Virus record (IMG/VR): IMGVR_UViG_3300022682_000033
Coordinates: 3,893-67,892 of that record
Source: a virus
Length of the DNA stretch: 64,000 bases
Reading direction: 5' to 3' (one strand)
The notes beneath the pieces are model-generated. The model made no database searches, was not told where the DNA came from, and was given only the letters and a program-made list of their open reading frames with translations. Position 1 is the first letter of the stretch, and every line of letters begins with the position of its first letter. The translations under genes were made by a program, and so were the position numbers. Positions 3,979 to 40,101 of this stretch are shown here, piece after piece.

Positions 3979-4583
3979 TTGATTATGGGCGCAGAGTCAG
4001 AACCATGATTGACAGGGTGGGCCGCAAATTTTATCCCCCTGGGGATTATCGTGCGGAATATGCGGCCTATCAGACAGTCGGAACAGGCAACCCTGATTAT
4101 TTAGGCGGGCATCAATGGCTCGGCAGGTTTTATTATGACACCGTTATCGAAGCCGGTGACGTGTTTTATTTTGCAGACGACGAAGATGTAAAATATTTAG
4201 TTGTTACAAAAACACCCATCAGACGCCAATCTAATGTGATTGAGAACCAATGCGGATTTATTGAGTCGAACCATATTGCCGATATATACCGCAAATCAAC
4301 TACACAGGACGCCACCACGGGCGAAAAGACAGACTCGTGGACGTTGACTAAGGGTGATCAAAATATCGTCTTATTTGACGCCTCGGCGGGCGTAACGGCT
4401 GCAATGTCAAATGCATTCCCGACCTATGCCGAACATGATGTCGCTATTTGGCTCCCGCATAGTGTTGGCGTTCAGAACGGTGATAGATTTGATGTTGATA
4501 GTGACTATTTCGTTGCAACAAAAATTTCAAAATATCAATCAGACGGCGTTGACGTTGTTTTTGCTGAGAGGGATGCGCGGTGA
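3975..4583 (+). CDS. Putative head closure protein
   Basis: Synteny; C-terminal GVQNGDRF..Y.V beta-barrel pattern. Confidence 0.45.
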   Translation: MIDYGRRVRTMIDRVGRKFYPPGDYRAEYAAYQTVGTGNPDYLGGHQWLGRFYYDTVIEAGDVFYFADDEDVKYLVVTKTPIRRQSNVIENQCGFIESNHIADIYRKSTTQDATTGEKTDSWTLTKGDQNIVLFDASAGVTAAMSNAFPTYAEHDVAIWLPHSVGVQNGDRFDVDSDYFVATKISKYQSDGVDVVFAERDAR

Positions 4584-5776
4584 AGCTTATACACGATGAT
4601 TGTTTAGACGTCCTAAGAAGTATGGAAGATAATACCATTGACGCAATCGTAACTGACCCACCATACGGACTTAAATTTATGTCAAAAAAGTGGGATTATA
4701 ACATTCCCGACGTTGATGTATGGCGCGAGTGTTTACGGGTTTTAAAACCCGGCGGTCATATTTTAGTTTTTGCGGGAACTCGCACCCATCACCGCATGGC
4801 ATGTGCAATTGAAGACGCTGGTTTTGAAATTCGCGATATGGTTGCTTGGGTTTATGGCAGCGGTTTTCCTAAGAATCATGATATAAGCAAGGCTATTGAT
4901 CGGAAACTTAGTAAAAAAAGAAAAATAATCGGGCGGAGGGTTTATGCCGATGGGACACCTGCGGGTGGAAGAAGATATGATTCTGTTGGTGAAGCTTGGC
5001 AGAGGCCTTGGAGAGCAAAACCACTAGAAAAGCAAGGCCAAGCATGGGAAACTGAGCCAGCCTCACAACAAGCTTGTCAATGGCAAGGCTACGGAACAGC
5101 CCTAAAACCAGCATTGGAGCCCATCACTCTTGCCCGCAAGCCGTTAAGCGAAAAGACGATTGCCGCAAACGTGCTCAAATGGGGAACCGGGGCGATAAAT
5201 ATTGATGGGTGTCGGGTGGAAATGCAGGCAGGAGACCAAAAGTCATTGTTTGGGCCGATAACACCACGCAAGCGTAAAGATAGCACAATTAATTGTTGTG
5301 GCAAAATAGATGCGCCACAAAAGCAAAACGTTGGGCGCTTTCCGGCCAATTTCATTCACGACGGCAGCGATGAGGTTGTTGGATTGTTTCCTGAAACAAA
5401 ATCCGGTTCAATATTGCCGCACCATAAGGCAAAAGAATCTGAAAACAGGGCCATGAGTGGCAAAAATTATGCCAGAACAGGGCAACTATTTGAAGGTTCA
5501 CAGGGCTCCGCTGCACGCTATTTTTACTGCGCCAAAGCAAGACCAAAGGAACGCGGGGAATACAACAATCATCCAACCGTCAAGCCGTTAAAGCTTATGC
5601 GTTATTTAGTGCGTTTGATAACGCCTCCGGGCGGTGTGGTTTTAGACCCCTTTTTGGGAAGCGGATCAACGGCAATTGCATGTGAAAAAGAAGGGTTTGA
5701 ATGTATTGGGATTGAAAAAGAAAAGGATTACATTGAAATTGCCGAGCGACGGTTGGCTGATTTTTTGCCAAATTAA
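4580..5776 (+). CDS. N6-adenine/N4-cytosine DNA methyltransferase (beta class)
   Basis: IVTDPPY catalytic motif, HPTVKP, VLDPFLGSGST SAM-binding motif. Confidence 0.92.
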   Translation: MKLIHDDCLDVLRSMEDNTIDAIVTDPPYGLKFMSKKWDYNIPDVDVWRECLRVLKPGGHILVFAGTRTHHRMACAIEDAGFEIRDMVAWVYGSGFPKNHDISKAIDRKLSKKRKIIGRRVYADGTPAGGRRYDSVGEAWQRPWRAKPLEKQGQAWETEPASQQACQWQGYGTALKPALEPITLARKPLSEKTIAANVLKWGTGAINIDGCRVEMQAGDQKSLFGPITPRKRKDSTINCCGKIDAPQKQNVGRFPANFIHDGSDEVVGLFPETKSGSILPHHKAKESENRAMSGKNYARTGQLFEGSQGSAARYFYCAKARPKERGEYNNHPTVKPLKLMRYLVRLITPPGGVVLDPFLGSGSTAIACEKEGFECIGIEKEKDYIEIAERRLADFLPN

Positions 5777-6804: not shown

Positions 6805-7716
6805 ATGGCTGGAGCAACTTATGTAAATCCTGAAAATGCGTTTGTCGGAAAATTCGACACTCGGCTTGGCCCGTGGGCGGCAAACATTGAGCAAACGACC
6901 GTGCAATTGACGAAATCAGCTAACAGTATAGGCGCCGTTTCCGAACAGGACATTGCCAGCGAGAAAGAGTTTTTGGATTTGATGCATGATTTTCCTGAGA
7001 CGATTGCATACACGATTCCGCTTAGCGAGTCATTCAAAGTCAATGTTTCCCCACAAGACATAAACCCTTTCAACATTGGCATTGCTAATGGTCTTAACCC
7101 TTATGATTCCGTTGCGGCGTCATATAGCGAGGTTGCTAAAAGCTCTACGTCCGGCACTTATGATGACACTAAGTTATCGTTTGACAATGACGGAACGCCA
7201 GCGGATACGTTTATTTTTGTGTTTACCGACGAGACAAATTTCAAATGCTATTCGGCATTGGATGGTTATCTGCAAGACGGCGGATCAGACGGCGCGGTAG
7301 CGTCCGAATTTGCGCCTGAAAATGGGTCTGACGTATACTTCACAATGGCCGCAAACTTCTTTACGGGTACTTGGGCCGCAGGCGACACATTAACGCTTCG
7401 TATGACTCCTTACGTTGCCGCTGGTAGCAATCTTTCGAGAACCACCGGCGAGGGTGGGGAGATAAAGCTTGGGAGTATTTTGGCTCCCGAAATTATGAGA
7501 TGCGAGTTGCATTTTCAGTACCCGAACGGAGATTATATGTATGTTGTTTTACCGCGTGCCCAGGTAAAAAGTCCTCTGTCTTTGGCAACTTCTATTTCCG
7601 AGGCATCCGCTATGTCTTGGGAAATTGTTGCTATCAGCGCCGATTCATCCGTCGATGGGATTAGCGTTACAACCTGGGATACGATGCCGCTTGGTAGAAT
7701 TTATTGGAGCAGTTAA
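6805..7716 (+). CDS. Major tail (tube) protein
   Basis: Synteny; IGAVSE and VVLPRAQV beta-rich motifs; AGGAG RBS. Confidence 0.65.
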   Translation: MAGATYVNPENAFVGKFDTRLGPWAANIEQTTVQLTKSANSIGAVSEQDIASEKEFLDLMHDFPETIAYTIPLSESFKVNVSPQDINPFNIGIANGLNPYDSVAASYSEVAKSSTSGTYDDTKLSFDNDGTPADTFIFVFTDETNFKCYSALDGYLQDGGSDGAVASEFAPENGSDVYFTMAANFFTGTWAAGDTLTLRMTPYVAAGSNLSRTTGEGGEIKLGSILAPEIMRCELHFQYPNGDYMYVVLPRAQVKSPLSLATSISEASAMSWEIVAISADSSVDGISVTTWDTMPLGRIYWSS

Positions 7717-7745
7717 TAAAAAAGACTAATGGAGGTTATTTAAAA

Positions 7746-8195
7746 ATGGCTCAAAAAAATAGTGTCAACCCAAAGATAAGAAAGTTCACCTTTGGGATTG
7801 ATGAATTGCAAACAGTCCAAATGTATCCGCTTTCGGTTGCAAATCAAAAACTTGTTTTGCAGTCTATTGTCGATGCATATTTTGAATTGGTTGGCGATAG
7901 CAGTAAACCAGAAGAACTTAAAAACGTAAGATATGTTGATCTTGCGCAAAAGGTTAAAGACGTTATTTTTGACAATGTTGATGATATCGCGAAGATGGTT
8001 TTTAGAGACTTTGATTCGGATATAACAACTGAAATTGACAATGACCAGCTTGTTCAATTCGTTGAAAATGTCTGGGAGCAAAATTTTGAGAACTCCTTAA
8101 AAAACGGGATGAGCCTCTTCAACAGGATCAAGTCAGCATTACCGAAGAAGAGGCCATCCAATTCGTCTGCGAGCACTACCCAGGATACCGATTAG
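7746..8195 (+). CDS. Tail assembly chaperone (gpG-like)
   Basis: Follows the tail tube gene; GGAGG RBS; slippery heptamer A-AAA-AAC at 8099-8105. Confidence 0.7.
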   Translation: MAQKNSVNPKIRKFTFGIDELQTVQMYPLSVANQKLVLQSIVDAYFELVGDSSKPEELKNVRYVDLAQKVKDVIFDNVDDIAKMVFRDFDSDITTEIDNDQLVQFVENVWEQNFENSLKNGMSLFNRIKSALPKKRPSNSSASTTQDTD

Positions 8196-8449
8196 AACAC
8201 TTTTACACGCTTTCCTATCTTGAAGGCGGCGTGACTTATGATCAGTTGTTTGGGCTGTACGAGCACAAGGTAAAATCGTTAAACAGGATGTATGGCGGCG
8301 ACGGCAAAAACACTGATGGCGACAATCAAAAAGAACAACCAAAGACAAAGGTTTACACCCAGGAAGAAATTGAGACCATGTCATGGGAAGAACGCGAAGA
8401 GCTTACGAGGCAAATGAAAGCCCATCATCGGAAAAGATTTTTCGGATAG
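8099..8449 (+). CDS. -1 frameshift extension of the tail chaperone (gpGT-like)
   Basis: The -1 frame is open from the slippery site into ORF 8231-8449. Confidence 0.7.
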   Translation, partial: KKRDEPLQQDQVSITEEEAIQFVCEHYPGYRLEHFYTLSYLEGGVTYDQLFGLYEHKVKSLNRMYGGDGKNTDGDNQKEQPKTKVYTQEEIETMSWEEREELTRQMKAHHRKRFFG

Positions 8450-8476
8450 ATAATCGTTTTATATATAATATTAACG

Positions 8477-8511
8477 AAGCCCGGCTGGTTTATCCTGTTT
8501 GGGCTTTTTTT
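8477..8511 (+). terminator. Intrinsic terminator after the chaperone genes
   Basis: AAGCCC...GGGCTT hairpin followed by a T-run. Confidence 0.6.
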
Positions 8512-8605
8512 ATTTTATTGACGCTTTTTGAAAACTTATGTTAATAGACGTTAATTAACGGCAATGACCATGCCAAAACAAAAGACCAAATTGAGGTAAA
8601 AAGCT

Positions 8606-10165
8606 ATGCAATATCCGAAAGATTATTATCCGACGCCAGAAAGCCTAATTGCGAAAATGGTTTCCAAAATTGACCGATTAAAGGAAAGCATATTAGAGCC
8701 ATCGGCGGGAGATGGCGCCATATTGGAATATTTGAAATCGTCTAAATATAAGTATCACGGTTTCAATGCAATGTGCGCAATCGAGAAAGATGAAAATCTC
8801 AGGTCAATTTTGACGGGCAAGGGTATAAGAGTAATCGACACAGATTTTTTGACATTCATAGGCCATGACAAGTTTGATCTTATAATTATGAACCCGCCCT
8901 TTTCAAAAGGAGCCGACCATCTCCTAAAAGCAATTGAAATTCTTTATTCAGGCCAAATAATTTGTCTTCTTAATGCAGAGACGCTAAAGAACCCGCATAC
9001 GAACAAGAGAAGGCATTTGGCAAGCGAACTTGAACGGCTTAATGCCGACATTGAGTATATCGAAGGGGCTTTCCTTGAGGCCGAGAGGCGCGCGGTGGTT
9101 GATATTGCATTGATTGACATTAGGGTCAATCGCAAGGTTGAAGATGATCTATTCGATGGTCTTTCAAAGCCTAAAGAAAAGAATATAGAAGTTGACACCG
9201 AATGCAAAGATGTCGCCACAAAAAAAACAATTAAGGATTTGGTTGCTGAATACAATCAATGCATGAGAATTGCACAGGAAACGCTTCTAAATTATTACAA
9301 AAATCATCGTAAAATTGGTGAATGGATAAGAATTAAAACATCGAAAGACGATTATTCAAAAGGGTCAACATTAACCGAGAAAATGCAAGCCGATATGAAT
9401 AATATATGTCAAGAAATGCGAGCATCCTTTTGGAAAAAACTTATTGATGTTGATATGGTCAGATGCCGATTGACTGGTAATAGATTTAAAGAATTTTACA
9501 GCAATATAGAAATTGTAAAGTCTCTTGATTTTACTGAATATAATTGCAATCAATTTATATTGAATACAATTAGAAACTTCCCAAAAACGATTGAAGAGGC
9601 CGTTCTTGAGATATTTGACATGTTCACAATCCGCCATGCTTATCATGAGGAATTGTACACCAAAAACATCCATTATTTCAACGGTTGGAGAACGAACAAC
9701 GCTTATAAGTGCAACAAAAAAGTAATAATTCCGATTAGGTCATCTTATGCAGAACCGTTTCAAAACTGGGGAAAATGGAGTCTTGACTATGAGGCTAAAC
9801 GTCAACTCAATGACATTGATTTGGTCATGAACTATTTTGACGGGATGCAAAGTAAGTATGCTCGTATGTCGGATGCTATTTCTGAAGCATTTGAAACAGG
9901 CCAAAACAAGGGAATTGAATCAACCTATTTCACTGTTGATTGTTTCAAAAAAGGAACCGCTCATTTAACATTCAATGACCATGACATTTTGAGACGATTC
10001 AATATTGCCGCTTGCAAAGGCAAAGGATGGCTTCCGAGAAATTACGGCGTTAAACCTGCAAAAGAAATTGAGACTCAAATTGTTGAGGAATTTGAAGGAC
10101 GTAAAAATTATAAAGTCGAAAACAATGTTTTGCAGACTGCTAATATTTTACGAATAGCGGCATAA
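8606..10165 (+). CDS. SAM-dependent methyltransferase with DUF4942-like C-terminus
   Basis: YYPTP, ILEPSAGDG and IIMNPPF motifs; C-terminal CFKKGTAHLTF. Confidence 0.8.
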   Translation: MQYPKDYYPTPESLIAKMVSKIDRLKESILEPSAGDGAILEYLKSSKYKYHGFNAMCAIEKDENLRSILTGKGIRVIDTDFLTFIGHDKFDLIIMNPPFSKGADHLLKAIEILYSGQIICLLNAETLKNPHTNKRRHLASELERLNADIEYIEGAFLEAERRAVVDIALIDIRVNRKVEDDLFDGLSKPKEKNIEVDTECKDVATKKTIKDLVAEYNQCMRIAQETLLNYYKNHRKIGEWIRIKTSKDDYSKGSTLTEKMQADMNNICQEMRASFWKKLIDVDMVRCRLTGNRFKEFYSNIEIVKSLDFTEYNCNQFILNTIRNFPKTIEEAVLEIFDMFTIRHAYHEELYTKNIHYFNGWRTNNAYKCNKKVIIPIRSSYAEPFQNWGKWSLDYEAKRQLNDIDLVMNYFDGMQSKYARMSDAISEAFETGQNKGIESTYFTVDCFKKGTAHLTFNDHDILRRFNIAACKGKGWLPRNYGVKPAKEIETQIVEEFEGRKNYKVENNVLQTANILRIAA

Positions 10166-10175
10166 GGAATAAAAA

Positions 10176-10361
10176 ATGCAATGTTCATTTTGTTCAATGC
10201 ATGCTTTAAGCGAGTCAGCGGAAGTGCCTGGAATATACTATTGTCGTAAATGTTTGATTGACCGGGTTGTTAATGATGGACCTAAAACAGCAATTTTGCT
10301 AAAAAACACCAATGAAATGGAGGAACAAAAAAATGAATCGAGATTTTATTACAACAATTGA
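10176..10361 (+). CDS. Small zinc-finger protein
   Basis: CSFC and CRKC pairs; AAGGA RBS. Confidence 0.55.
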   Translation: MQCSFCSMHALSESAEVPGIYYCRKCLIDRVVNDGPKTAILLKNTNEMEEQKNESRFYYNN

Positions 10362-11565
10362 GATGCTGAGACAAATCAGATTTGCCAGCGACATAAAAAT
10401 GAGCCGTAATTTCGCCGACTTTTTATCTGATCGCATTTTGCAGGCAGCCACTGAAAAAACATTGTTAAAGTTTTCTGAACGGTTATGCGTGCTTGTTAAC
10501 GCATCTGTCGGAAAGTTAAATCATGATATAAAAACAGATTTCATTCGGGTTGCAATGCAACCGGAATCAAATATCATGGTTTCATGGATGCGCGAATATC
10601 CCAAACTGGCCGCCATGCTATGCTTTATCAGAGACGATAAGGAACGGCGCGACATTATCTCAGGCATAGATATTGATATCGAGGATAAGCCACAAGGCGT
10701 GGCAGTGCAAAGAAAGCCGTTTGATATCGGTATTAATGTAGTTTGCAGCACTCCACTTTCTCATGGGTCAGACATAAAAGCAGGCAATGCAACGCTTTTC
10801 AGGCGCATGGGTGTGCTTTCAAATAAGGAGTCAGTCTTATCCCTACCTTATTACGCCGGTAATGCCATGAGAGGTCTCATGCGCGATTTATTGGCCGATC
10901 ATTTCCTTGAATCACTTGGATTGACGCCGCGCCGCGACACGCCTCCTGTCGAGTTGTGGTTTTTTCATGCACTGTATTCAGGAGGCGCACTATCTGAGCA
11001 AAGCAAGTCTTTAAGTGACATTATGAAAGTAGCTGGTAAAACAGCTATCCGAGCAGACGGGATCAAGCAGATTAGAGAAAACTTTCCAGCATTATCATTG
11101 CTCGGTTTTGCATTCGGGAACCGCGTATTGTCTGGACGTTGTAATTTTGGAGACCTAAGGCCGGTGTGCAAACAGTGGGGGTTTGATAGCGATATTGATG
11201 TTAATGATCTTTTCGAGTGGGTATTCCTCACACGACGCGAAGACCATGAAGGCCACAATGATGATGAGAACTCAAGTATGATTGCAAATTGTGAATGCCT
11301 AAAACCTGGTGTTGTGCTTGACGGGGGCGTTGATTACGGACCTTATCTGACAGATATCGAAAAGGGTGCGTTGGCGCGTGGATTATTATTGATATCTGAA
11401 AAGGGACGGCTCGGTGCGGAAGCAAGGCGCGATTTGGGAGGCGTTAATTTTGTTTTTGAGAACCTTCCAGACCCGAAACCGTATGATGATTTTTTGGTTG
11501 AAAAGAAAGATTCTATCATTGCTTTTTTGAATGAGATAAGCGCATTTAAGGAGGCTATAAAGTGA
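10333..11565 (+). CDS. csf2: Type IV CRISPR Csf2 (Cas7) with a ~110-aa helical, Cas11-like N-terminal extension
   Basis: RAMP motifs TPLSHG, LPYYAGNAMRGLMRD, LYSGGAL, FPALSLLG and Gly-loop RLGAEARRDLGGV; GGAGG RBS before the ATG at 10333. Confidence 0.8.
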   Translation: MNRDFITTIEMLRQIRFASDIKMSRNFADFLSDRILQAATEKTLLKFSERLCVLVNASVGKLNHDIKTDFIRVAMQPESNIMVSWMREYPKLAAMLCFIRDDKERRDIISGIDIDIEDKPQGVAVQRKPFDIGINVVCSTPLSHGSDIKAGNATLFRRMGVLSNKESVLSLPYYAGNAMRGLMRDLLADHFLESLGLTPRRDTPPVELWFFHALYSGGALSEQSKSLSDIMKVAGKTAIRADGIKQIRENFPALSLLGFAFGNRVLSGRCNFGDLRPVCKQWGFDSDIDVNDLFEWVFLTRREDHEGHNDDENSSMIANCECLKPGVVLDGGVDYGPYLTDIEKGALARGLLLISEKGRLGAEARRDLGGVNFVFENLPDPKPYDDFLVEKKDSIIAFLNEISAFKEAIK

Positions 11566-12194
11566 ATCTAAAAGTTATTTTTGAGCTTGACGGAACTGGT
11601 GTCGTGTATAGCCCATCATTTCCGCTTCACCTTGATGGACTTTTGGAATGGGCGGCCATGCCGATTGAGAAAATAGGAATTGTTGATCGCAATTCAGATG
11701 ATATTTTTCATCCCGAAATTCCGGTTGAAAAGTGGAAGGTTGGTGATACATGGGGTTGGAAAGCATCGGCGTTGTTCCCGGAGCCGGAACGACATCCTGA
11801 ATCAATCCAATACTGGAGAAAAAAATTTCGCCAAAATCGCTCACATCTTCTTGGTTGCAGTTTTAATACGATGTCCGGCGCTTACAGAGAGTATAATATG
11901 CCGATGGTTCTCTGTATGTGCAATCGGATGATTGCTTATGTTCGCGGAGAAAAATGCAAGATAAAAACTCTTTTGGAAAAGATAAAATACTTAGGTAAAA
12001 AGGGTTCTTACGGGAAAGGCCGTGTAAACAATATCCGAGTACGTGGAATCAATCACGATTGGTCTATTGAGAAGGATGGACGTTACATGCGCTTTTTCCC
12101 TAAAAAAGACGGTGTTCGTTTCGGTAGAGTAAGGCCGCCGTATTGGAATACAACGAACCGATTGCAAACGTGTTATGTGGGGGATGCGGTTTGA
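11562..12194 (+). CDS. csf3: Type IV CRISPR Csf3 (Cas5), copy 1
   Basis: LHLDGLL, WKAS, YLGKKGSYGKGRV Gly-loop, RPPYW. Confidence 0.8.
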   Translation: MNLKVIFELDGTGVVYSPSFPLHLDGLLEWAAMPIEKIGIVDRNSDDIFHPEIPVEKWKVGDTWGWKASALFPEPERHPESIQYWRKKFRQNRSHLLGCSFNTMSGAYREYNMPMVLCMCNRMIAYVRGEKCKIKTLLEKIKYLGKKGSYGKGRVNNIRVRGINHDWSIEKDGRYMRFFPKKDGVRFGRVRPPYWNTTNRLQTCYVGDAV

Positions 12195-12979
12195 ATTTCC
12201 ACAATTATTTCATGGAAGATATTGTTGCGGCTAAAATATACACCAACTATCTTGAGGCGAATGCAAAAAAAACAATCCTCAAAATAGAATCTTTTTTGGA
12301 TAGCTGTAAATCTGTTTGTTTTTCTCTATCTTTTGGAAAAGATAGTATGACGATATTACAGTTATTGCATGAAAGCGGTTTGATTGATAAAATATCTCTC
12401 GTTATGTTCAATCATTCCGGTATAGAAACAGATGATACTGAAATATTTATTGATTATGTAGTTGAATATTATGATATCAAAAGAAAATTTTATATGACCA
12501 AACCGGATGAGAATACATTAAAAAAATCACTATCAACAGTCGATTTTGATGCTTTTCATCCGATGCGAGATTTTGTGTATTATTGCCTTGAAAAGCCTCG
12601 TTGGGAATTAATGGATAAGTTTGATGTGGATGGAACGATTTTAGGTTTAAGAATTGACGAATCGAGAGGAAGAAAAATAAACTATTTTGTTCGTGGTGAT
12701 AATTATTATGCAAAGCGCGAACTGTCTAACATATTGACTCCTATTGTTAAGTGGAGAACAATAGATATATATCGTTTCGCGGCATTGCGAAAAATCCCTT
12801 TTCATCCGATCTATCGAAAAAAAGCACGACTCGGATATGACAAAATGCAAATACGCCATAATACACCGTTAGAGGTTAAATTTTCAAATAATGGCGATAT
12901 GTCTGTTTTGAAAGCACTGTATCCACGTACTTTTCAAGAATATGAACATATTTTACCACAAATATCGAATTTTTTATAA
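12143..12979 (+). CDS. cysH: CysH/PAPS-reductase-like PP-loop protein of type IV-B loci (start uncertain)
   Basis: SLSFGKDS PP-loop, LGLRIDESRGR, PIVKW...DIY. Confidence 0.8.
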   Translation: MEYNEPIANVLCGGCGLNFHNYFMEDIVAAKIYTNYLEANAKKTILKIESFLDSCKSVCFSLSFGKDSMTILQLLHESGLIDKISLVMFNHSGIETDDTEIFIDYVVEYYDIKRKFYMTKPDENTLKKSLSTVDFDAFHPMRDFVYYCLEKPRWELMDKFDVDGTILGLRIDESRGRKINYFVRGDNYYAKRELSNILTPIVKWRTIDIYRFAALRKIPFHPIYRKKARLGYDKMQIRHNTPLEVKFSNNGDMSVLKALYPRTFQEYEHILPQISNFL

Positions 12980-13036
12980 GGAGGTGATTGTGATGCAAAA
13001 AGCTACTGGAAGCGGAAGAGGCGGGAGAGGCAGATA

Positions 13037-13777
13037 ATGCACACCTTACAGCTAATCGGAAGGCAAATAAAAGACCATTGGAAAGAGTTGCCTTCCGAAC
13101 CACAAAAAGAAATATGCTGCGTTTCCGGTGATTATTGCGACTGCGTTCCGCGCAAAAAAACGTTTTCATCTGGCTTTACATCCCAAAAAAAATTGGCCGC
13201 GCCCGAATCGCAATGGGTGTCAGTCGAAATATACCAGGCCATGAAATACAGGCCGTCACGGTCGTCTTGGGTTGTTTCGGAAAACGGTTTTCAAAAACTA
13301 ACACGCATTGAAGCACGTGAATATGTACTTCACAACCAATTGTCGCCGCCGTGGGCGGGATATATAACAACCAGCTATAAGAAGCACGGCGGATTGATCG
13401 CTCCCTTTAATTCGGGTGATAAGGCTGTATGGCTGTTTGAGACAATGATTGTTGATTGTTCTGATTCAGAAAAGATCAATCGTTGGTATAATATCATGGA
13501 TGATGCTCTTAGGAATGGGATAGGGAGAACTATAATCGAAACGCTTGAAATATCACCGCTATACATACCGAAAATTGGAATTGACCGTTGGATTGCTTTT
13601 GAAAAGTGGGCGCGTCCAAAAATTAACGATCCGCTATATAAATTTTTGACCTATTTTATGAAGTCTCAGGAGGAATTGAAAGATGAAAAAAAAGAATCAG
13701 TTAATAAAGAAAGAAAAGAATATCAGAAAACTGAAAATGTTTTCGAAAAACAATTGCAAATGTTTCCCGATTCTTGA
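13037..13777 (+). CDS. csf1: Type IV CRISPR Csf1 (Cas8-like)
   Basis: N-terminal Cys cluster, FSSGFT, PPWAGYITTSYKKH; operon context. Confidence 0.7.
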   Translation: MHTLQLIGRQIKDHWKELPSEPQKEICCVSGDYCDCVPRKKTFSSGFTSQKKLAAPESQWVSVEIYQAMKYRPSRSSWVVSENGFQKLTRIEAREYVLHNQLSPPWAGYITTSYKKHGGLIAPFNSGDKAVWLFETMIVDCSDSEKINRWYNIMDDALRNGIGRTIIETLEISPLYIPKIGIDRWIAFEKWARPKINDPLYKFLTYFMKSQEELKDEKKESVNKERKEYQKTENVFEKQLQMFPDS

Positions 13778-13955
13778 AAGAATAATATGGTTTGATAGCG
13801 AGGTTGAAAAAGATAAATTCCCAAATGCGACTAAACTAGCTAAAAAATTTGAGATATCTGTTAGAACTGCACAAAGAGCAATAGAAACAATGAGAGATAG
13901 GCTTGAAATAGATATCCAATATGATCCTCATAAAAAAGGATACTTCTATGGATAA
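13683..13955 (+). CDS. Stand-alone winged HTH (HTH_11-like, as at the N-terminus of WYL regulators)
   Basis: PNATKLAKKFEISVRTAQRAIETMRDRL...IQYD...GYFY. Confidence 0.7.
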   Translation: MKKKNQLIKKEKNIRKLKMFSKNNCKCFPILERIIWFDSEVEKDKFPNATKLAKKFEISVRTAQRAIETMRDRLEIDIQYDPHKKGYFYG

Positions 13956-14571
13956 TCTAAAAATAATTTTTCATTTAGATGGTACTGGCGTTTTTTTGAC
14001 AGGCATACATCATTTAGATGGTATTTTGGCATATCAATATTTCGCAAATAATGGCTGTGATCGTCTAACCAATGCAAATGATGTGCCTGAAGACGCTGAT
14101 TTACCGTTAGAAAAATGGGAAATAGATGGCCATTGGGGTTGGAAGGCAAGCATGCTATTTCCAGGAGAAAAATTTAATAGTTCGATACAATATAGACGTA
14201 GGAGATTTAATATAAATCGAATCGAAATGTTAAATTGCTCTATTAGTACAATGGGATTCACGACTGGCAATAGAAATATGCCAATGGATTTAAAATTAGT
14301 TGATAAAATTTATTCTTATGCAGTTGGTGATAAAAATAAATTATTAAATTTATTAAAAAATATAAAATATATAGGCAAGGATGCATCAAGAGGAAAGGGG
14401 CGCGTTAATGATATTACGATCGAATATTTAGACAGAGATAAGTCTATGTATGATTCGGACGGGCATCCTGTCAGATATCTTCCAGATGAAAGCGGAAGTA
14501 GGTTTGGAAGGGTGAGACCGCCGTATTGGAATAACCATGATAGGTGCCATACAAAAATATTTATTCAATAA
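13948..14571 (+). CDS. csf3: Type IV CRISPR Csf3 (Cas5), copy 2
   Basis: Collinear with 11562-12194: LDGTG, HLDG, EKW, WGWKAS.LFP, IGK..S.GKGRVN, RFGRVRPPYWN. Confidence 0.8.
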   Translation: MDNLKIIFHLDGTGVFLTGIHHLDGILAYQYFANNGCDRLTNANDVPEDADLPLEKWEIDGHWGWKASMLFPGEKFNSSIQYRRRRFNINRIEMLNCSISTMGFTTGNRNMPMDLKLVDKIYSYAVGDKNKLLNLLKNIKYIGKDASRGKGRVNDITIEYLDRDKSMYDSDGHPVRYLPDESGSRFGRVRPPYWNNHDRCHTKIFIQ

Positions 14572-14588
14572 ATAGGATAAGATAAAAA

Positions 14589-17500
14589 ATGGCTGAAGCA
14601 GCATTAGGAACAAAATTCACAACTAAGGGCGCTAACGATGTTATCAATGCCCTTGACACGATTAAGAACTCAATGGCCGCATTGGATAGGATAAATGCGT
14701 CTTTTGTTAAAAATGCTGCTGCTGTCAACAAACAATTTGAGAATTTTAATAAGACCGCCAAAAGCGCCGCACAAAACATAAATACTTTTGTAAAAAGCGC
14801 TGACATAGCCTCAAAATCTACAAAGTCAGCTTCCGAAAATATCAAGAATGCCGGTGATAACGTAAAAAGAACCGGAAGCGAGTTTGACAAAACTTCAAAA
14901 AAGGTTGGCGGATTCTCAAAAGTTATTGAAACTCTAAACAATAATTTCGCGAGAATAAGCCAGGCCGGTAATGATGTCGCTAACATCGGGCAAAAGATGA
15001 TCGGTGTTTTGTCATTTCCAGTAAAAGAGGCCGCTGATTTTCAGAACAAGATGCAAGCGGTTAAGGCTGTCATGGCCGATGTGAGTGAAGAAGGCTTTAA
15101 GGCCATGTCAGATGAGGCTAAGCGGATGGGGGCCACAACCGCCGCCACGGCTTCACAGGCAGCCGAGGCACTTCAATTCCTTGCTATGGCTGGTCTTGAT
15201 GCAAGGGAAGCGACAGAGGCACTCTCAGGCACTTTGGCGCTTGCTCAGGCTGGTAACTTGTCAATGGCTAAGGCCGCTGATATTAGCACCAATGTTTTGG
15301 CCGGTTTGGGTCTTGAGGTGGAAGAACTTGGCCGCGTTGTGGATGTCATGGCGACCGCCGCCAACAAATCGAATCAAAGCGTTTCTGAACTTGGACAAGC
15401 AATGAGAATCGCAGGCCCAGCCGCAAAAGGCACAAACACCGAAATGGAGGACATGGTCGCTTTTTTGGGCGGGCTTGCAAATGCCGGTATAAAGGGATCG
15501 AATGCCGGTCATGCTGTCAAACGGATGCTTATATCGCTGTTAAGCCCGACCGGACGCGCCGCCGATAAATTGGAAGAATTGAACATCTCAACGGAAGATT
15601 CGGAAGGCAATTTCAGGGGACTAATACCGATCCTAAAAGACCTTCAAGGCAGGCAAGTTGACCTCGCCGATGCAACCGAAATATTTGGGAAATATACATC
15701 AACTGCGGCCATTGCAGCGGCCGGAGCGACAAATGACATTGAAGGATTGCAAGGTGCTTTTGAACAAGCGTCCGGAGCCGCAAAGAAGATGGCGAAAACT
15801 CGGTTGGATAGTTTTTTGGGTTCTTTGACGCTACTCAAATCAGCGGTTTCTGGACTATTAATTTCAGCGGGGGAGCCATTGCTTGGAATCCTTGCGAAAA
15901 TAGCAGGGGCCGCAACAAAGCTGATAGGAATAATTCAATCTGTTGGGAAATTTCTTGGCCCTGTTACTCCGATATTGTTGGCGATTGTAGGAGTTCTCGG
16001 AAGCCTTTTAGTTGTCATGGGGTCAACGGCTGTGGCATTGGCAGGGATGATAGCTGCATTCACAACGCTTTCAGGTATTTTGCAAGGCCAGGTTGCAACA
16101 AGCCTTTTCGGATATGTTCGTAACCTTGCGGTCGTTAATGCTGGAATGACAGTTACCACTACGGTTGTTGGAAAATTGAAATTAGCGTTCACAACATTGC
16201 TTCCGGTTTTGGCAGCGGTTGGAGCGGCTTGGGGAATTTCGAAAATATATGAGGCGATCAAAGCCTATTATTCAATGCGGGACGCTCAAAAGGCGGCCAA
16301 AGAATCAATTCAAAATCTCGTAACAAACAGTCAAAATCTGATTGATAAATATTCAGAATTTGGTGCAATGGATTTTTCCGGCAAAACCGTAAACCAATTG
16401 GTTCAAATGCAAACTGAATTAAAAAAAGCCCGTGTCTATTGGATTGCAATGAAAAACGTTGCCGAAACCAAAAAAGATTCGGAGGCTATTGCCGATGCAA
16501 CCGCTAAATTGAAAGAGCTTGATGGGATGCTTGTTCAGGTTTCTCAACAATCGGCGCTTGAAAAGCCACGAGAGGCAATTAAGGCAACCAAAGATGAGAT
16601 GCAGAAATTCAAGGAGGCCGCTCAGGATGCGTATGATAAGGCAATTGAATCAGCAAAAAAATATACAGACAAGGCGTTAGAATTTACGGAAAAAATAAGG
16701 CAAGCGAATCTTACCACAGAACAAAAGGTCGCTGAATTTAGGCGTCAAGGATTAACTGATGAAGAGAAAAGGGCTTCTCGTCAAAAAGAACTCGAAGAAA
16801 CACTTGCTAAACTGAAAGAAGCATCCGCCAATAAAGACTATGAAACAGCCGAGAGATTGGCTAAACACGCGGAGTCGCTGCAAGTCGCCAACATGCAAGG
16901 CCAAGATAAGGTCACTGAAAATCAAATTCAGGGTTATGAACAAATCAGGCAGGCGTATAATGATTATGTGTTAGAGCCTCAAAAACAAGCAAACGTTGAA
17001 CTCGCTAAAGGCGCTTCCGAAGCGGCAAAAACGATTCAGGAACAACTAAATGCAATAGGTGATAATCTCACAGCAAATGTAAGAATTGAGCTTTCAAACC
17101 TTCAGGAAATGGAAGAAACGTTAGATGCTCAATTCGCAAAAATAGAACCTGAAATTGATCTAAAAAAACCAGCATTGACCGCTCTTGATGAGGCTTTGAA
17201 AGCGATTGAAAATACCGATAAAAAGGTTGACGTTCCAGTGGATGCGGACGATGCCGAAGCAAAGAGAAAAATATCCGAACTTACGAAAACCGAAACGAAA
17301 ATTATAAAAGTTGTCACTCAAGAGGCAAAATCGGGGGGCGGTGTCGCAGGTGATTCAGGCCCGTTGAAATTATCGCGTGGGTTTAAGCTTCCTGGATATT
17401 CTCGAAAAGACACAGTACCAGCATTATTGACGCTTGGTGAGAGGGTCACAAACGCATTATCAACGCGAGTAATAGACGGTTTTATGCCCGGTCTTATGGA

Positions 17501-17825
17501 TTCAATCAATCGCCTAAGAACGCGCCAAGACGCTGTCAATTTGTTCTCAAAATTTATGCCGACAATAAAGGCTTCTCAAGGTGCTTTTATCGCTGCAAGG
17601 CGTCAACCGGTTATGAGACCGGTTCTAAAACTTGCCGATGGTGCGAAGGTTGGCGGCGGATCGACAACGATAAATAATAATGGTCTTAACCTTGATGACA
17701 TCAAAGACTTAGGCCGGATTATGGTAGTAACGCCTAAAGAGAAAGGTTCAATATTTGGGAATGAGTCAATCCTAAAACAACTGACTCGTGAAATGCAAAG
17801 ACAGAAAATGGCGGGTGCTTTCTAA
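14589..17825 (+). CDS. Tail tape measure protein (TP901-family core)
   Basis: 1078 aa, Ala-rich helical; AAEALQFLAMAGL, LANAGIKGSNAG. Confidence 0.92.
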   Translation: MAEAALGTKFTTKGANDVINALDTIKNSMAALDRINASFVKNAAAVNKQFENFNKTAKSAAQNINTFVKSADIASKSTKSASENIKNAGDNVKRTGSEFDKTSKKVGGFSKVIETLNNNFARISQAGNDVANIGQKMIGVLSFPVKEAADFQNKMQAVKAVMADVSEEGFKAMSDEAKRMGATTAATASQAAEALQFLAMAGLDAREATEALSGTLALAQAGNLSMAKAADISTNVLAGLGLEVEELGRVVDVMATAANKSNQSVSELGQAMRIAGPAAKGTNTEMEDMVAFLGGLANAGIKGSNAGHAVKRMLISLLSPTGRAADKLEELNISTEDSEGNFRGLIPILKDLQGRQVDLADATEIFGKYTSTAAIAAAGATNDIEGLQGAFEQASGAAKKMAKTRLDSFLGSLTLLKSAVSGLLISAGEPLLGILAKIAGAATKLIGIIQSVGKFLGPVTPILLAIVGVLGSLLVVMGSTAVALAGMIAAFTTLSGILQGQVATSLFGYVRNLAVVNAGMTVTTTVVGKLKLAFTTLLPVLAAVGAAWGISKIYEAIKAYYSMRDAQKAAKESIQNLVTNSQNLIDKYSEFGAMDFSGKTVNQLVQMQTELKKARVYWIAMKNVAETKKDSEAIADATAKLKELDGMLVQVSQQSALEKPREAIKATKDEMQKFKEAAQDAYDKAIESAKKYTDKALEFTEKIRQANLTTEQKVAEFRRQGLTDEEKRASRQKELEETLAKLKEASANKDYETAERLAKHAESLQVANMQGQDKVTENQIQGYEQIRQAYNDYVLEPQKQANVELAKGASEAAKTIQEQLNAIGDNLTANVRIELSNLQEMEETLDAQFAKIEPEIDLKKPALTALDEALKAIENTDKKVDVPVDADDAEAKRKISELTKTETKIIKVVTQEAKSGGGVAGDSGPLKLSRGFKLPGYSRKDTVPALLTLGERVTNALSTRVIDGFMPGLMDSINRLRTRQDAVNLFSKFMPTIKASQGAFIAARRQPVMRPVLKLADGAKVGGGSTTINNNGLNLDDIKDLGRIMVVTPKEKGSIFGNESILKQLTREMQRQKMAGAF

Positions 17826-34522: not shown

Positions 34523-34553
34523 CCGGAATCTTCCGGTTAATCGCTGGTTATAT
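34523..34553 (+). repeat. Cassette-run leader motif (half-attC/attI-like), copy 1
   Basis: CCGGAATCTTCCGGTTAATCGCTGGTT; copies at 36246, 37693 and 40071. Confidence 0.7.
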
Positions 34554-34842: not shown

Positions 34843-34940
34843 TGCTATCGAGATAGGGTCGCCACCGAAAAGCAAGTATCCTGTTCTTGTCTGCTCGATA
34901 GCTCATTAAAAACAGGAAACCCTGAACAGGAGGAGTCCTT

Positions 34941-36245: not shown

Positions 36246-36269
36246 CTTCCGGTTAATCACTGGTTGGAC
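36246..36269 (+). repeat. Cassette-run leader motif, copy 2 (5'-truncated)
   Basis: CTTCCGGTTAATCACTGGTT. Confidence 0.65.
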
Positions 36270-37710: not shown

Positions 37711-37723
37711 TCACTGGTTAGAA
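37693..37723 (+). repeat. Cassette-run leader motif, copy 3
   Basis: CCGGAATCTTCCGGTTAATCACTGGTT. Confidence 0.7.
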
Positions 37724-40070: not shown

Positions 40071-40101
40071 CCGGAATCTTCCGGTTAATCACTGGTTATG
40101 C
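40071..40101 (+). repeat. Cassette-run leader motif, copy 4
   Basis: CCGGAATCTTCCGGTTAATCACTGGTT. Confidence 0.7.

What the first reader, a model, noticed from the sequence alone, without database searches (positions are those of the whole stretch)
8450..14588. Array-less type IV-B CRISPR-like operon inserted as a moron between tail chaperone and tape measure
Seen: after a terminator-like hairpin come MTase, Zn finger, Csf2, Csf3, CysH-like, Csf1, wHTH and a second Csf3, then the tape measure gene 17 bp later. No cas1/2, cas6, dinG or repeat-spacer array is visible in the window. Known: type IV-B loci pair csf genes with cysH, mostly lack arrays, and have no established function. The gene order, duplication, fusion and position inside a tail operon look atypical. 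Inference: an anti-defence or nucleic-acid-modifying RNP.
Basis: partly seen in the sequence, partly recalled or inferred. Interest (0 to 1): 0.8.

Follow-up and report, generated by a model that had tools for sequence, protein, structure and literature searches.

The report
Mosaic type IV-B module in phage
A tailed-phage genome carries a genuine CRISPR-array-less type IV-B Cas gene set, rearranged, with a second Cas5 gene and swapped-in accessory genes, wedged between its tail-chaperone and tape-measure genes; such sets are already known from phages, and their function is still unknown.

Summary
Window 8606-14571 encodes, on the + strand and tightly coupled: an N6-adenine MTase with DUF4942, a 61-aa CxxC ORF, a Cas11-Csf2 fusion, Csf3a, a CysH-like PP-loop enzyme, Csf1, a 90-aa HTH and Csf3b. 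The tape measure gene starts 17 nt later. The 67.9-kb virus record (CheckV 75% complete) has no array, Cas1, Cas6 or DinG.

The Cas11-Csf2 fusion is normal for a large, mostly viral clade: 576 homologues and 43 viral loci.

Three things are unusual:
- The gene order differs from relatives.
- A second Csf3 is present, sister to the first (UFBoot 98), and seen in none of 56 related loci.
- The position differs: 10 sampled relatives carry the module near replication or terminase genes.

The island is a mosaic. A metagenome contig shares Csf2-Csf3a and Csf1 at about 89-95% identity but has 1,992 other bases in place of CysH. The unshared segments have 32-37% GC against 42-43%.

Csf1 ends in QLQMF-PDS, which resembles a sliding-clamp peptide.

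Function is not shown. This scan has already noted phage IV-B modules in at least 118 other genomes. Verdict: a new variant of a known kind.

The parts
7704..8449 (+). Tail assembly chaperone-like pair: 163-aa ORF (7704-8195) and a -1 frame extension open from about 8090 to 8449. Slippery heptamer A AAA AAC at 8099-8105.
   Evidence: No PHROG or Pfam hit. Identified by position before the tape measure gene and by frameshift geometry only.
8476..8520 (+). Terminator-like hairpin with a U-run, 27 nt after the chaperone stop. A TTGACG hexamer follows at 8519.
   Evidence: -13.8 kcal/mol, z -2.38. Not listed by the consensus scan.
8606..10165 (+). Orphan N6-adenine-type methyltransferase with a C-terminal DUF4942 domain. 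Low-GC segment (36.8% together with the next ORF).
   Evidence: Homologues at 47-50% identity in 4 viral loci, none with csf genes nearby.
10176..10361 (+). 61-aa CxxC...CxxC ORF. Overlaps the Csf2 start by 29 nt. AGGA lies 6 nt upstream of its ATG.
   Evidence: No family hit. It was called as a gene in the protein collection and is identical on two contigs. Not conserved upstream of Csf2 in relatives: a CxxC-rich small ORF in 2 of 12 loci looked at.
10333..11565 (+). Cas11-Csf2 (Cas7) fusion, 410 aa. The helical Cas11-like domain spans residues 1 to about 125 and the RAMP domain about 130-410. The loop HGxDxKxGN is invariant.
   Evidence: PADLOC 4.5e-40. PDB profile hits Cas7c 1.2e-10, Csf2 7jhy 3.8e-7, Cas11c 1.2e-4. 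N-terminal-only profile hits Cas11c at 3e-5. AF2 pLDDT 83 with 7 helices then RAMP. Foldseek top hits are IV-A and IV-B Csf2 chains. GGAGGA lies 7 nt before the ATG at 10333.
11562..12194 (+). Csf3a (Cas5), 210 aa. Overlaps the Csf2 stop by 4 nt.
   Evidence: It is 35-52% identical to the Csf3 of relatives. It keeps 37 of 42 family-conserved columns.
12191..12979 (+). CysH-like PP-loop enzyme (CasCysH type), 262 aa from TTG 12191, or 255 aa from ATG 12212. Has the SFGKDS PP-motif and no conserved cysteine. Low-GC swapped segment (33.1%).
   Evidence: Replaced by 1,992 other bases in the closest relative. Nearest viral homologues lie beside distant csf genes. It is 42% identical to the CysH inside the IV-B locus L050.
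12993..13037 (+). 14-codon micro-ORF (MQKATGSGRGGRGR) with a GGAGG site. Its stop overlaps the Csf1 ATG (TAATG).
   Evidence: Read directly. Function untested.
13037..13777 (+). Csf1 (Cas8-like large subunit), 246 aa. Has a 32-aa K/E-rich helical tail ending in QLQMF-PDS.
   Evidence: PADLOC 2.8e-13. It is 23-47% identical to the Csf1 of relatives. AF2 pLDDT 93. The top 3 Foldseek hits are chains of about 240-263 aa in type IV-A effector complexes, best E 6.8e-5 and TM 0.53-0.57 for the top two. Tail statistics.
13683..13955 (+). 90-aa winged-HTH protein. AGGAGG lies 8 nt before its ATG. It overlaps the Csf1 tail by 95 nt in another frame. It begins the low-GC segment (32.2%).
   Evidence: Pfam HTH_11 1.1e-6, PADLOC WYL-regulator N-terminus 6e-5.. 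No homologue in 56 related loci at 1e-4.
13948..14571 (+). Csf3b, a second and faster-evolving Cas5 paralogue, 207 aa. Its start overlaps the HTH stop (ATGGATAA).
   Evidence: PADLOC 3e-31. It is 43% identical to Csf3a and sister to it, UFBoot 98 / SH-aLRT 96. It keeps 34 of 42 conserved columns. No closer homologue among 20 hits.
14589..17825 (+). Tape measure protein gene, 17 nt after Csf3b.
   Evidence: phrog_1533 4.3e-89..

Best explanation
SHOWN (about 0.95): this is a genuine, complete, array-less subtype IV-B Cas effector gene set (Cas11-Csf2 fusion, Csf3, Csf1, CysH-like PP-loop enzyme). It lies inside a mosaic accessory island of a novel tailed phage, between the G/GT-like tail chaperone ORFs and the tape measure gene. 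The island was built stepwise. A roughly 43%-GC core (Cas11Csf2-Csf3a ... Csf1) is shared with a close relative. Three low-GC pieces are not shared with it: MTase plus Zn-ribbon ORF, CysH, and HTH plus Csf3b. Every breakpoint falls on a gene border. Csf3b is a diverged duplicate from the Csf3a lineage.

INFERRED (about 0.35): how it works.
1. The Cas11-Csf2 fusion polymerises 1:1 along an RNA that is not a phage-encoded crRNA.
2. Csf3 and Csf1 cap the filament.
3. The particle acts as a platform that brings an interchangeable nucleic-acid-modifying enzyme to the bound or paired nucleic acid. Here that enzyme is the cysteine-less PP-loop CysH-like protein, which would act through an adenylated intermediate.
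4. This benefits the phage by marking or protecting nucleic acid, or by countering host defence, next to an orphan DNA methyltransferase that protects against restriction.
5. The Csf1 tail (QLQMF) may tether the particle to the host sliding clamp, that is, to replicating DNA.
6. The second Cas5 probably gives either a second cap or a second particle type.
For: Identity:
- Profile hits for all four Cas parts and for CysH.
- PDB profile hits to Cas7c, Csf2 and Cas11c.
- Folds match IV-A and IV-B Csf2 chains, and a chain of about 240 aa in IV-A effector complexes for Csf1.
- The same gene set occurs in 45 of 56 related loci, about 36 of them distinct.

Intact and used:
- All ORFs are open, with Shine-Dalgarno sites and overlapping stops and starts.
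- Both Csf3 copies keep 37 and 34 of 42 conserved columns.
- A second contig of 32,420 nt carries identical MTase, Zn ORF, Csf2, Csf3a and Csf1, with one amino-acid change each in Csf3b and CysH.

Mosaic:
- An 11,086-nt contig of run X1 matches 10330-12193 (95 differences) and 13036-13681 (70 differences). It has 1,992 other letters in place of 12194-13035 and nothing alike upstream of 10330.
- GC by segment is 36.8 / 43.4 / 33.1 / 42.4 / 32.2%.
- CysH-type and MTase-type homologues come from viral contigs of 27-31% GC.

Platform-for-modifier idea:
- In 9 relatives the slot beside Csf1 and Csf3 holds PAPS_reduct in 7 loci. In 2 of these it is fused to DUF3440; of those, L015, the one checked, has a ParB_N neighbour. 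One locus has a B12-radical-SAM enzyme instead.
- CysH has the PP-motif SFGKDS and no conserved Cys. This matches the CasCysH description in PMC8175902, section 7.
- Solved IV-C complexes pair Cas7 and Cas11 1:1 (PMC13676074, passages).

Clamp lead:
- 10 of 17 distinct long Csf1 tails have [LMIFV]F within the last 5 residues. Shuffles give a mean of 0.56, and 0 of 2000 reach 10.
- L024 ends in QLSLF.
Against: - No experiment or RNA data bears on function.
- The NCBIfam csf models all score below their curated cut-offs.
- The only solved IV-B particle bound heterogeneous RNA and showed no Csf1 or Csf3 density (PMC7937560, passages). Guided action is therefore doubtful.
- CysH is replaced by other cargo in the closest relative and was not found by Pfam in 2 of 9 relatives. 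The core does not strictly need it.
- The island has no room for a promoter before the tape measure gene and sits in a late structural operon. That is odd for a counter-defence function needed early.
- Promoter-like sites are no more frequent than chance: 23 found against 23.5 expected.
- The clamp-like ending is present in only 10 of 38 distinct Csf1 tails; 21 tails are under 10 aa. QLQMF is not the textbook QL[SD]LF, which I recalled rather than tested.
- The record is about 75% complete, so an array or a cas6 gene elsewhere cannot be excluded.
Confidence: 0.4

Rival explanations
1. Guide-RNA sponge (anti-CRISPR or anti-Argonaute-like). The Csf filament soaks up host crRNAs or other small guide RNAs and so blinds host RNA-guided defence. 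CysH would inactivate the captured RNA.
For: This is proposed in the literature for IV-B on mobile elements (PMC8175902 section 7; PMC7038947 discussion passages; 10.1101/2023.08.02.551345 passage). The system is array-less and lacks Cas6. It is carried by a phage beside an orphan MTase. The solved IV-B particle bound RNA without sequence preference.
Against: [quoted passage not shown] Pinilla-Redondo et al. judged such a complex Acr unlikely. It explains neither the swappable modifier slot nor the clamp-like tail. Its position in the late operon is also odd.
Confidence: 0.2
2. crRNA-scavenging interference. The particle loads crRNAs made by a host array, or by an array in the missing 25% of the genome, and uses them against competing phages or plasmids. 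This would parallel type IV-C, which recruits crRNAs from arrays elsewhere.
For: Type IV-C effectors use crRNAs from distant arrays (PMC13676074 passages). A full Cas5, Cas7, Cas8 and Cas11 set is present. Two Cas5 paralogues could read two repeat types. The record is only about 75% complete. One archaeal virus IV-B carries a mini-array (PMC10848311 passage).
Against: No array, Cas6 or nuclease/helicase effector is present in 67.9 kb. No array was seen by eye in the tblastn maps of relatives, but I ran no array search on those loci. IV-B did not load type I-E crRNAs.
Confidence: 0.15
3. Passenger with no present function. The island is a junkyard of recombined accessory genes that happens to sit in a tolerated spot, and the second Csf3 is on its way to decay.
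For: Mosaic structure with GC jumps. The Csf3b branch is twice as long as that of Csf3a. Csf3b has no orthologues. Csf3b lost the G-x-Y-R columns that are conserved in other Csf3 proteins.
Against: About 6 kb of uninterrupted, translationally coupled ORFs lie directly upstream of an essential gene. Csf3b keeps 34 of 42 conserved columns. Near-identical copies occur on two contigs.
Confidence: 0.07
4. Virion-linked role. Because the genes lie between the chaperone and the tape measure gene, some product (the MTase or the Csf particle) is made with the tail and delivered with the DNA to act at once on entry.
For: Position only: the genes are co-oriented and lie 17 nt from the tape measure gene.
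Against: In 10 sampled relatives the largest ORF near the module is a terminase, a replication protein, a transposase or a methyltransferase, never a tape measure protein. No homologue of this phage's tail genes lies next to any of 56 related loci. No packaging signal is known.
Confidence: 0.03

Closest known systems
Subtype IV-B CRISPR-Cas of Mycobacterium sp. JS623 megaplasmid (Csf complex, PDB 7JHY; PMC7937560)
   Same: Has Csf1, Cas11, Csf2 and Csf3 with a cysH-like neighbour. Has no array, Cas6, helicase or adaptation genes. The Csf2 fold and sequence match 7jhy.
   Different: Here Cas11 is fused to the N-terminus of Csf2. The order is Csf2-Csf3-CysH-Csf1-HTH-Csf3. There are two Cas5 genes. 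The carrier is a phage rather than a plasmid. Sequence similarity is low: NCBIfam matches fall below their cut-offs.
Virus-borne type IV-B sets already in print: Fuxivirus of Bathyarchaeia (PMC10848311), a Methanoperedens virus (10.1101/2023.08.02.551345), and 'prophages and some free phages' (PMC8730458, PMC7038947). I saw passages only.
   Same: An array-less or nearly array-less IV-B set with a CysH-like gene on a viral genome. Counter-defence is the proposed role and is untested.
   Different: The passages I read describe a separate cas11 gene and a single csf3. None mentions a tail-operon position, a second Cas5 or cargo swapping.
The phage clade of fused Cas11-Csf2 IV-B modules found here in public contigs (43 IMG/VR loci, 8 genome loci, 3 metagenome loci). 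This scan noted it before on other DNA (e1-6094109).
   Same: Csf2 is a fusion protein of about 410 aa, 38-57% identical, or 77% for P0002. Csf1, Csf3 and usually a PAPS_reduct gene are present.
   Different: Relatives have the order Csf2-Csf1-(0-4.2 kb)-Csf3 and one Csf3. They carry no MTase-DUF4942, Zn ORF or HTH homologue. Where sampled, they lie near replication, transposase or terminase genes.
Type IV-C effector of Pyrococcus abyssi (PDB 11fs; PMC13676074)
   Same: Best PDB sequence matches for both halves of the fusion are Cas7c at 1.2e-10 and Cas11c at 3e-5. Cas7 and Cas11 pair 1:1 in the solved particle.
   Different: IV-C has a Cas10-like HD nuclease large subunit and uses crRNAs. Here the large subunit is Csf1 and no nuclease is seen.
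Phage morons and orphan DNA methyltransferases
   Same: There is a hairpin plus U-run upstream, a GC drop against the flanks, an accessory function, and insertion between conserved structural genes.
   Different: No terminator or gap follows the island, so the tape measure gene must be transcribed through it. It is about 6 kb with eight genes from several sources, rather than a single gene.

Membership tests
Type IV CRISPR-Cas, subtype IV-B | Csf2 (type IV Cas7) backbone subunit | tested here: met
   PADLOC Csf2_0_IV 4.5e-40. PDB profile hits 7jhy Csf2 at 3.8e-7 and Cas7c at 1.2e-10. Foldseek top hits are IV-A and IV-B Csf2 chains. NCBIfam cas7_csf2 gives only 23 bits against a cut-off of 130.
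Type IV CRISPR-Cas, subtype IV-B | Csf3 (Cas5) | tested here: met
   Two copies. PADLOC 2.2e-36 and 3e-31. NCBIfam 8.3e-23 and 3.2e-22, both under the 140-bit cut-off. The precomputed Pfam PF27782 is carried by both copies.
Type IV CRISPR-Cas, subtype IV-B | Csf1 (small Cas8-like large subunit) | tested here: met
   PADLOC Csf1_0_IV 2.8e-13. The AF2 model matches chains of about 240 aa in IV-A effector complexes (7xg1_A E 6.8e-5 and TM 0.53; 8rc3_G TM 0.57). The output does not name these chains; I take them to be Csf1 from their length.
Type IV CRISPR-Cas, subtype IV-B | Cas11 small subunit | tested here: met
   Present as the N-terminal domain of Csf2. The profile of residues 1-125 hits Cas11c of PDB 11fs at 3e-5. 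The whole-protein profile gives 1.2e-4. PADLOC Cas11_0_IV is weak at 0.018. The model shows a seven-helix bundle. There is no separate cas11 gene.
Type IV CRISPR-Cas, subtype IV-B | Associated cysH-like gene with a PP-motif and no catalytic cysteine (as described in PMC8175902 section 7) | tested here: met
   PAPS_reduct 3.4e-14. SFGKDS is invariant and no Cys column is conserved in 9 homologues. The same CysH type lies inside or beside csf genes in L050, L058 and L059.
Type IV CRISPR-Cas, subtype IV-B | No CRISPR array, Cas6, DinG/RecD helicase or adaptation genes | tested here: met
   (no array). (no Cas1, Cas6_C, Csf4). This holds only for the 67.9 kb held, which is about 75% complete. Cas2 and RecD were not searched by profile.
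Type IV CRISPR-Cas, subtype IV-B | Assembles as an RNP on RNA | not testable with these tools
   Needs expression and purification.
Siphovirus tail assembly chaperone pair G/GT | Two overlapping ORFs before the tape measure gene, joined by a -1 frameshift at a slippery heptamer | tested here: inconclusive
   A AAA AAC lies at 8099-8105 and the -1 frame is open from 8090 to 8449. No PHROG or Pfam hit supports it. The frameshift itself cannot be tested here.
Phage moron | Own terminator and promoter, different base composition, dispensable insertion between conserved genes | tested here: inconclusive
   An upstream hairpin plus U-run is present and the GC is lower and mosaic. No downstream terminator is present, and promoter-like sites are not above chance. 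No close relative lacking the island was found.
Beta sliding-clamp binding peptide (QL[SD]LF type; consensus recalled, from no call) | C-terminal Q-L-x-L/M-F on a flexible tail | tested here: inconclusive
   The window tail ends in ...EKQLQMFPDS. 10 of 17 long tails in relatives end in a hydrophobic residue followed by Phe, against 0.56 expected. L024 ends in QLSLF. The tail is modelled as a helix. Binding was not tested.

The most novel reading that the evidence does not exclude
Phage type IV-B particles are replication-fork-docked carriers for interchangeable nucleic-acid-modifying enzymes. The Csf1 tail (QLQMF here, QLSLF in a relative) would hold the Cas11-Cas7 filament on the host sliding clamp. 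The gene slot next to Csf1 and Csf3 is a cargo bay that phages refill by recombination at gene borders. Its contents seen here are a PP-loop CysH, PAPS_reduct-DUF3440 (with ParB_N beside it in L015), a B12-radical-SAM enzyme, and unknown 2-kb cargo in the closest relative. In this phage a second, diverged Cas5 would let one backbone build two different particles or cap both ends. Placement in front of the tape measure gene would tie its synthesis to late replication and packaging.
Probability: 0.12. Interest if true: 0.85.

Novelty: new variant of a known kind. Interest (0 to 1): 0.5.

Why it matters
Type IV-B is the last CRISPR-Cas subtype without a known function. A 2026 paper still calls its biological function and full architecture unclear (PMC13676074 passage).

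This locus does not solve that, but it gives concrete handles:
- A natural swap experiment: the same core at about 89-95% identity with CysH here and with other cargo in a relative.
- A natural Cas5 duplication, which can show what Cas5 does in an array-less system.
- A fixed 1:1 Cas11-Cas7 fusion, which should ease reconstitution.
- A clamp-like tail on Csf1, which points to DNA replication as the place of action.

It also shows that a 6-kb island can sit between the tail chaperone genes and the tape measure gene, a junction that is usually tight.

Tried and rejected
Searches that found no close relative:
- Nucleotide search of the island against 50,697 phage records: no match.
- Major capsid protein against the same records: no match.
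- Csf2 against the same records: only a 29.5% partial hit in Skermania phage SPI1.
- Tape-measure relatives in IMG/VR are only 30-35% identical. No relative without the island could be compared, so 'insertion' rests on synteny logic, GC and the X1 contig.

Tools that gave nothing:
The contexts of the 77%-identical Csf2 (P0002), of the 32,420-nt contig and of the CysH homologues could not be fetched.
- hhalign of the Cas11-like domain against SPI1 Orf41: no similarity, probability 0.3.
- Complex prediction of Csf3a with CysH: 'no answer', score 0.00. This is not evidence either way.
- The look-up of sequencing runs: no RNA holder listed. There was one weak DNA holder study, with shares of 0.10, 0.04 and 0.00. 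Only the X1 contig was informative. The many short pieces under 90% likeness at 14107-14384 come from AT-rich low-complexity sequence and were ignored.

Ideas tested and dropped:
- That the island is one of the phage's attC-like cassette runs (lead from note e1-6189300). The 27-nt heading motif occurs only at 34523, 37693 and 40071, with a partial copy at 36253, and not near 8450-14588. Rejected.
- That the Zn-ribbon ORF is a conserved csf partner. It has no homologue in 56 loci, and a CxxC-rich small ORF lies upstream of Csf2 in only 2 of 12 loci. Rejected.
- That the MTase is IV-B-linked. None of 4 homologue loci has csf genes. Rejected.
- That Csf3b came from a distant IV-B lineage. The tree places it as sister to Csf3a. 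Its 32% GC, however, argues it spent time in a lower-GC genome, so this stays open.

Other limits:
- The promoter scan was not above chance.
- Supplementary files of papers were closed. The supplementary data of Pinilla-Redondo et al. may list fused or phage-borne IV-B variants that I could not see.
- Literature searches for IV-B in phages, CasCysH and Cas11-Cas7 fusions gave listings, and I read passages or one section only. None of what I read mentions a Cas11-Csf2 fusion in IV-B, two csf3 genes or a tail-operon site. This is not proof that it is not in print.

Full report
WHAT IS THERE

The window is bases 3893-67892 of a 67,892-bp linear IMG/VR virus record, GC 42%, CheckV completeness about 75%. 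Upstream of the finding lie structural genes:
- a major head protein gene (phrog_29, 5e-16);
- a DNA methyltransferase gene inside the head module (4580-5776, phrog_67, 6.4e-79);
- several ORFs without family hits, including a 303-aa ORF and then a 163-aa ORF (7704-8195).

The -1 frame is open from about 8090 to 8449, and a classic slippery heptamer A AAA AAC lies at 8099-8105. This is the geometry of the tail assembly chaperone pair G/GT, although no profile confirms it.

A hairpin of -13.8 kcal/mol followed by a U-run lies 27 nt after 8449. From 8606 to 14571 eight ORFs follow on the + strand. The tape measure gene (phrog_1533, 4.3e-89) starts 17 nt later.

IDENTITY OF THE GENES

Profile searches give:
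- DUF4942 (8.1e-33) plus a type II MTase N-terminus (PADLOC 1.1e-11) for ORF 1;
- nothing significant for the 61-aa CxxC ORF;
- Csf2 (PADLOC 4.5e-40);
- Csf3 twice (2.2e-36 and 3e-31);
- PAPS_reduct (3.4e-14);
- Csf1 (2.8e-13);
- HTH_11 (1.1e-6).

The NCBIfam csf models match, but all fall below their curated cut-offs. These proteins are therefore distant from the reference type IV proteins.

A profile of 24 Csf2 homologues hits PDB chains Cas7c (1.2e-10), Csf2 of 7JHY (3.8e-7) and, with its first 100 residues, Cas11c (1.2e-4). A profile of the N-terminal 125 residues alone hits Cas11c at 3e-5.

The AlphaFold model of Csf2 (pLDDT 83) shows seven helices followed by a RAMP fold. Foldseek ranks type IV-A and IV-B Csf2 chains first. 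The Csf1 model (pLDDT 93) matches only chains of about 240 aa in type IV-A effector complexes (E 6.8e-5; TM 0.53-0.57).

No array, Cas1, Cas6 or Csf4/DinG is present in the record. All defining parts of subtype IV-B are therefore present, with Cas11 fused to Csf2.

GENE JUNCTIONS
- Csf2 starts at ATG 10333 behind GGAGGA. This agrees with the 410-aa gene called in the public collection.
- Csf3a overlaps the Csf2 stop.
- CysH most likely starts at TTG 12191, overlapping the Csf3a stop. That gives 262 aa, as called in the collection.
- A 14-codon micro-ORF with its own GGAGG ends in TAATG, which is the Csf1 start.
- The HTH gene starts at ATG 13683 behind AGGAGG. It is read in another frame through the last 95 nt of Csf1.
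- Csf3b starts at 13948, overlapping the HTH stop.

Everything is intact and translationally coupled. There is no room for a promoter before the tape measure gene.

RELATIVES

The roughly 410-aa fused Csf2 has 576 homologues at E <= 0.001 among 8,000 scored candidates. The best 120 are 361-552 aa long and cover 86-98% of the query. Pattern scans returned:
- 43 distinct IMG/VR loci;
- 8 loci in 185,579 species genomes, mostly short MAG contigs plus Sulfuriferula multivorans TTN;
- 3 metagenome loci.

In all 45 loci where Csf2, Csf1 and Csf3 were all found (about 36 distinct sequences), the order is Csf2-Csf1-(0 to 4.2 kb)-Csf3. None of the 56 loci has two Csf3 places. None has a homologue of this phage's MTase-DUF4942, Zn ORF, HTH or tail genes at 1e-4.

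I scanned the largest ORF near the module in 10 loci. The results were:
- terminase large subunit in L015, L030 and L033;
- primase or helicase in L016 and L014;
- Mu-type transposase in L017, and weakly in L025;
- an SbcC-like protein in L013;
- an endonuclease-methyltransferase in L007;
- an unknown ATPase-like protein in L041.
None was a tape measure protein.

So the fusion is the norm in this clade. The order, the second Csf3 and the tail-operon site are not.

THE SECOND Cas5

Csf3a and Csf3b are 43% identical. In a tree of 41 Csf3 sequences they are sisters (SH-aLRT 96; UFBoot 98, with the bootstrap not fully settled). The Csf3b branch is about twice as long. They keep 37 and 34 of the 42 columns that are at least 85% conserved in the 39 other sequences. 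Csf3b has lost the G-x-Y-R columns.

A search of 5.8 billion clustered proteins found 20 hits for Csf3b. None is closer than Csf3a, apart from a one-residue variant on a second contig.

THE MOSAIC

One public run (coded X1) holds an 11,086-nt contig. It matches window 10330-12193 with 95 differences and 13036-13681 with 70 differences. It carries 1,992 other letters where the window has 12194-13035. It has nothing at least 80% alike upstream of 10330, and it ends 69 nt after 13681.

These breakpoints are the Csf2 start, the Csf3a stop, the Csf1 start and the HTH start. GC follows the same borders:
- structural genes: 46.2%;
- MTase plus Zn ORF: 36.8%;
- Cas11Csf2-Csf3a: 43.4%;
- CysH segment: 33.1%;
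- Csf1: 42.4%;
- HTH-Csf3b: 32.2%;
- tape measure gene: 44.6%.

The CysH subfamily is small, with 9 homologues. Its nearest viral members lie on contigs of 27-31% GC. Two of those three lie beside distant Csf2-like or Csf3-like genes. A 42%-identical copy sits inside the IV-B locus L050. MTase-DUF4942 homologues lie on four viral contigs without csf genes. Three of those contigs have about 30% GC.

A sister contig of 32,420 nt carries identical MTase, Zn ORF, Csf2, Csf3a and Csf1, with single substitutions in Csf3b and CysH. The arrangement is therefore not a one-off assembly product, although I could not read that contig.

ACCESSORY SLOT IN RELATIVES

I scanned ten ORFs from nine loci lying between or just after Csf1 and Csf3.
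- Seven carry PAPS_reduct. Two of these are fused to DUF3440; in L015, the one checked, a ParB_N protein lies next to it.
- One is a B12-binding radical-SAM enzyme (L033).
- One has no hit (L017).

Together with the X1 swap, this shows a slot that holds different enzymes of the nucleic-acid-modifying kind.

The window's CysH has the invariant PP-motif SFGKDS and no conserved cysteine. That is the CasCysH pattern described in PMC8175902, section 7.

Csf1 TAIL

A lead came from earlier notes of this scan (e1-5873473 and e1-3690851). The Csf1 core ends at LLPSQEEL. The window then has a 32-aa tail...EKQLQMFPDS, encoded in overlap with the HTH gene.

Of 38 distinct tails, 17 have at least 10 residues. 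Of these, 10 have a hydrophobic residue followed by Phe within the last five residues. Examples are QLSLF, KLLF, GTLF, ELF and SLF. Shuffled tails give a mean of 0.56, and 0 of 2000 shuffles reach 10. This resembles the sliding-clamp peptide, whose consensus I recalled rather than tested. The tail is modelled as a long helix. Binding was not tested.

WHAT IT MOST LIKELY DOES

Shown: a complete, intact IV-B effector set plus a PP-loop enzyme, an orphan MTase and a small regulator, on a phage.

Inferred:
1. The fusion protein coats an RNA 1:1, as Cas7-Cas11 pairs do in the solved IV-C particle.
2. Csf3 and Csf1 cap it.
3. The particle brings the slot enzyme to nucleic acid, perhaps at the replication fork through the Csf1 tail.
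4. The phage gains protection or counter-defence.

I put the identity at about 0.95 and this mechanism at about 0.35. The rivals are:
- a guide-RNA sponge (0.2);
- crRNA scavenging for interference between mobile elements (0.15);
- a functionless passenger (0.07);
- a virion-linked role (0.03).

The literature I could read still calls the IV-B function unknown.

NOVELTY

Type IV-B on prophages, phages and archaeal viruses is in print. This scan has noted it in at least 118 genomes, including a fused Cas11. New here:
- the two Cas5 genes;
- the Csf2-Csf3-cargo-Csf1 order, shared with one close relative;
- the gene-border cargo swap seen between near-identical cores;
- the site between the chaperone genes and the tape measure gene.

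Verdict: a new variant of a known kind, of moderate interest.

Noticed in passing
window 34523-34549, 37693-37719, 40071-40097 (partial copy 36253-36265): Exact 27-nt motif CCGGAATCTTCCGGTTAATC(A/G)CTGGTT in three places; none is expected by chance. It does not occur at the IV-B island.
   Followed up: partly
window 34846-34916: Rfam int-alpA RNA (RF02996) matches above its gathering score: 39.1 bits against 35.8.
   Followed up: no
window 4580-5776: A second DNA methyltransferase (phrog_67, 6.4e-79) sits inside the head gene module, so this phage tolerates accessory genes in its structural operon at more than one place. Its C-terminal part has homologues next to the IV-B module in several relatives (L002, L011, L022, L034, L036, L042).
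   Followed up: partly
window 12993-13037: 14-codon Arg/Gly-rich micro-ORF with a strong Shine-Dalgarno site. Its stop overlaps the Csf1 start. It lies inside the segment that is swapped in the X1 contig.
   Followed up: no
window 10762-10788 (Csf2 residues 144-152 of the 410-aa protein): The loop H-G-x-D-x-K-x-G-N is invariant in 24 of 24 homologues (H144, G145, D147, K149, G151, N152). It falls in the only low-confidence loop of the model apart from 301-317. It lies where type III Csm3 and JS623 Csf2 have their 'catalytic loop' (PMC7937560 passage). It could be an active site.
   Followed up: partly
L033 11900-13150; L015 12197-13944; L042 12098-13459: In relatives the slot between Csf1 and Csf3 holds a B12-binding radical-SAM enzyme (L033) or PAPS_reduct fused to DUF3440 (L015, L042). 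In L015 a ParB_N protein lies next to it. These replace the plain CysH-like gene.
   Followed up: partly
L017 1116-3392; L025 4920-7022: Two relatives carrying the module encode a Mu-type transposase (phrog_310, 2.4e-85 in L017). The module therefore also travels on transposable phages.
   Followed up: no
window 32963-33062: Three copies of a 20-nt repeat, ACTACTAAAGAAACTTTACC (two exact, one at 85%), spaced by 57 and 23 nt. It looks like an operator or iteron cluster.
   Followed up: no
window 8099-8105: Slippery heptamer A AAA AAC with an open -1 frame to 8449. This is a likely programmed frameshift in a chaperone pair that has no detectable family.
   Followed up: partly
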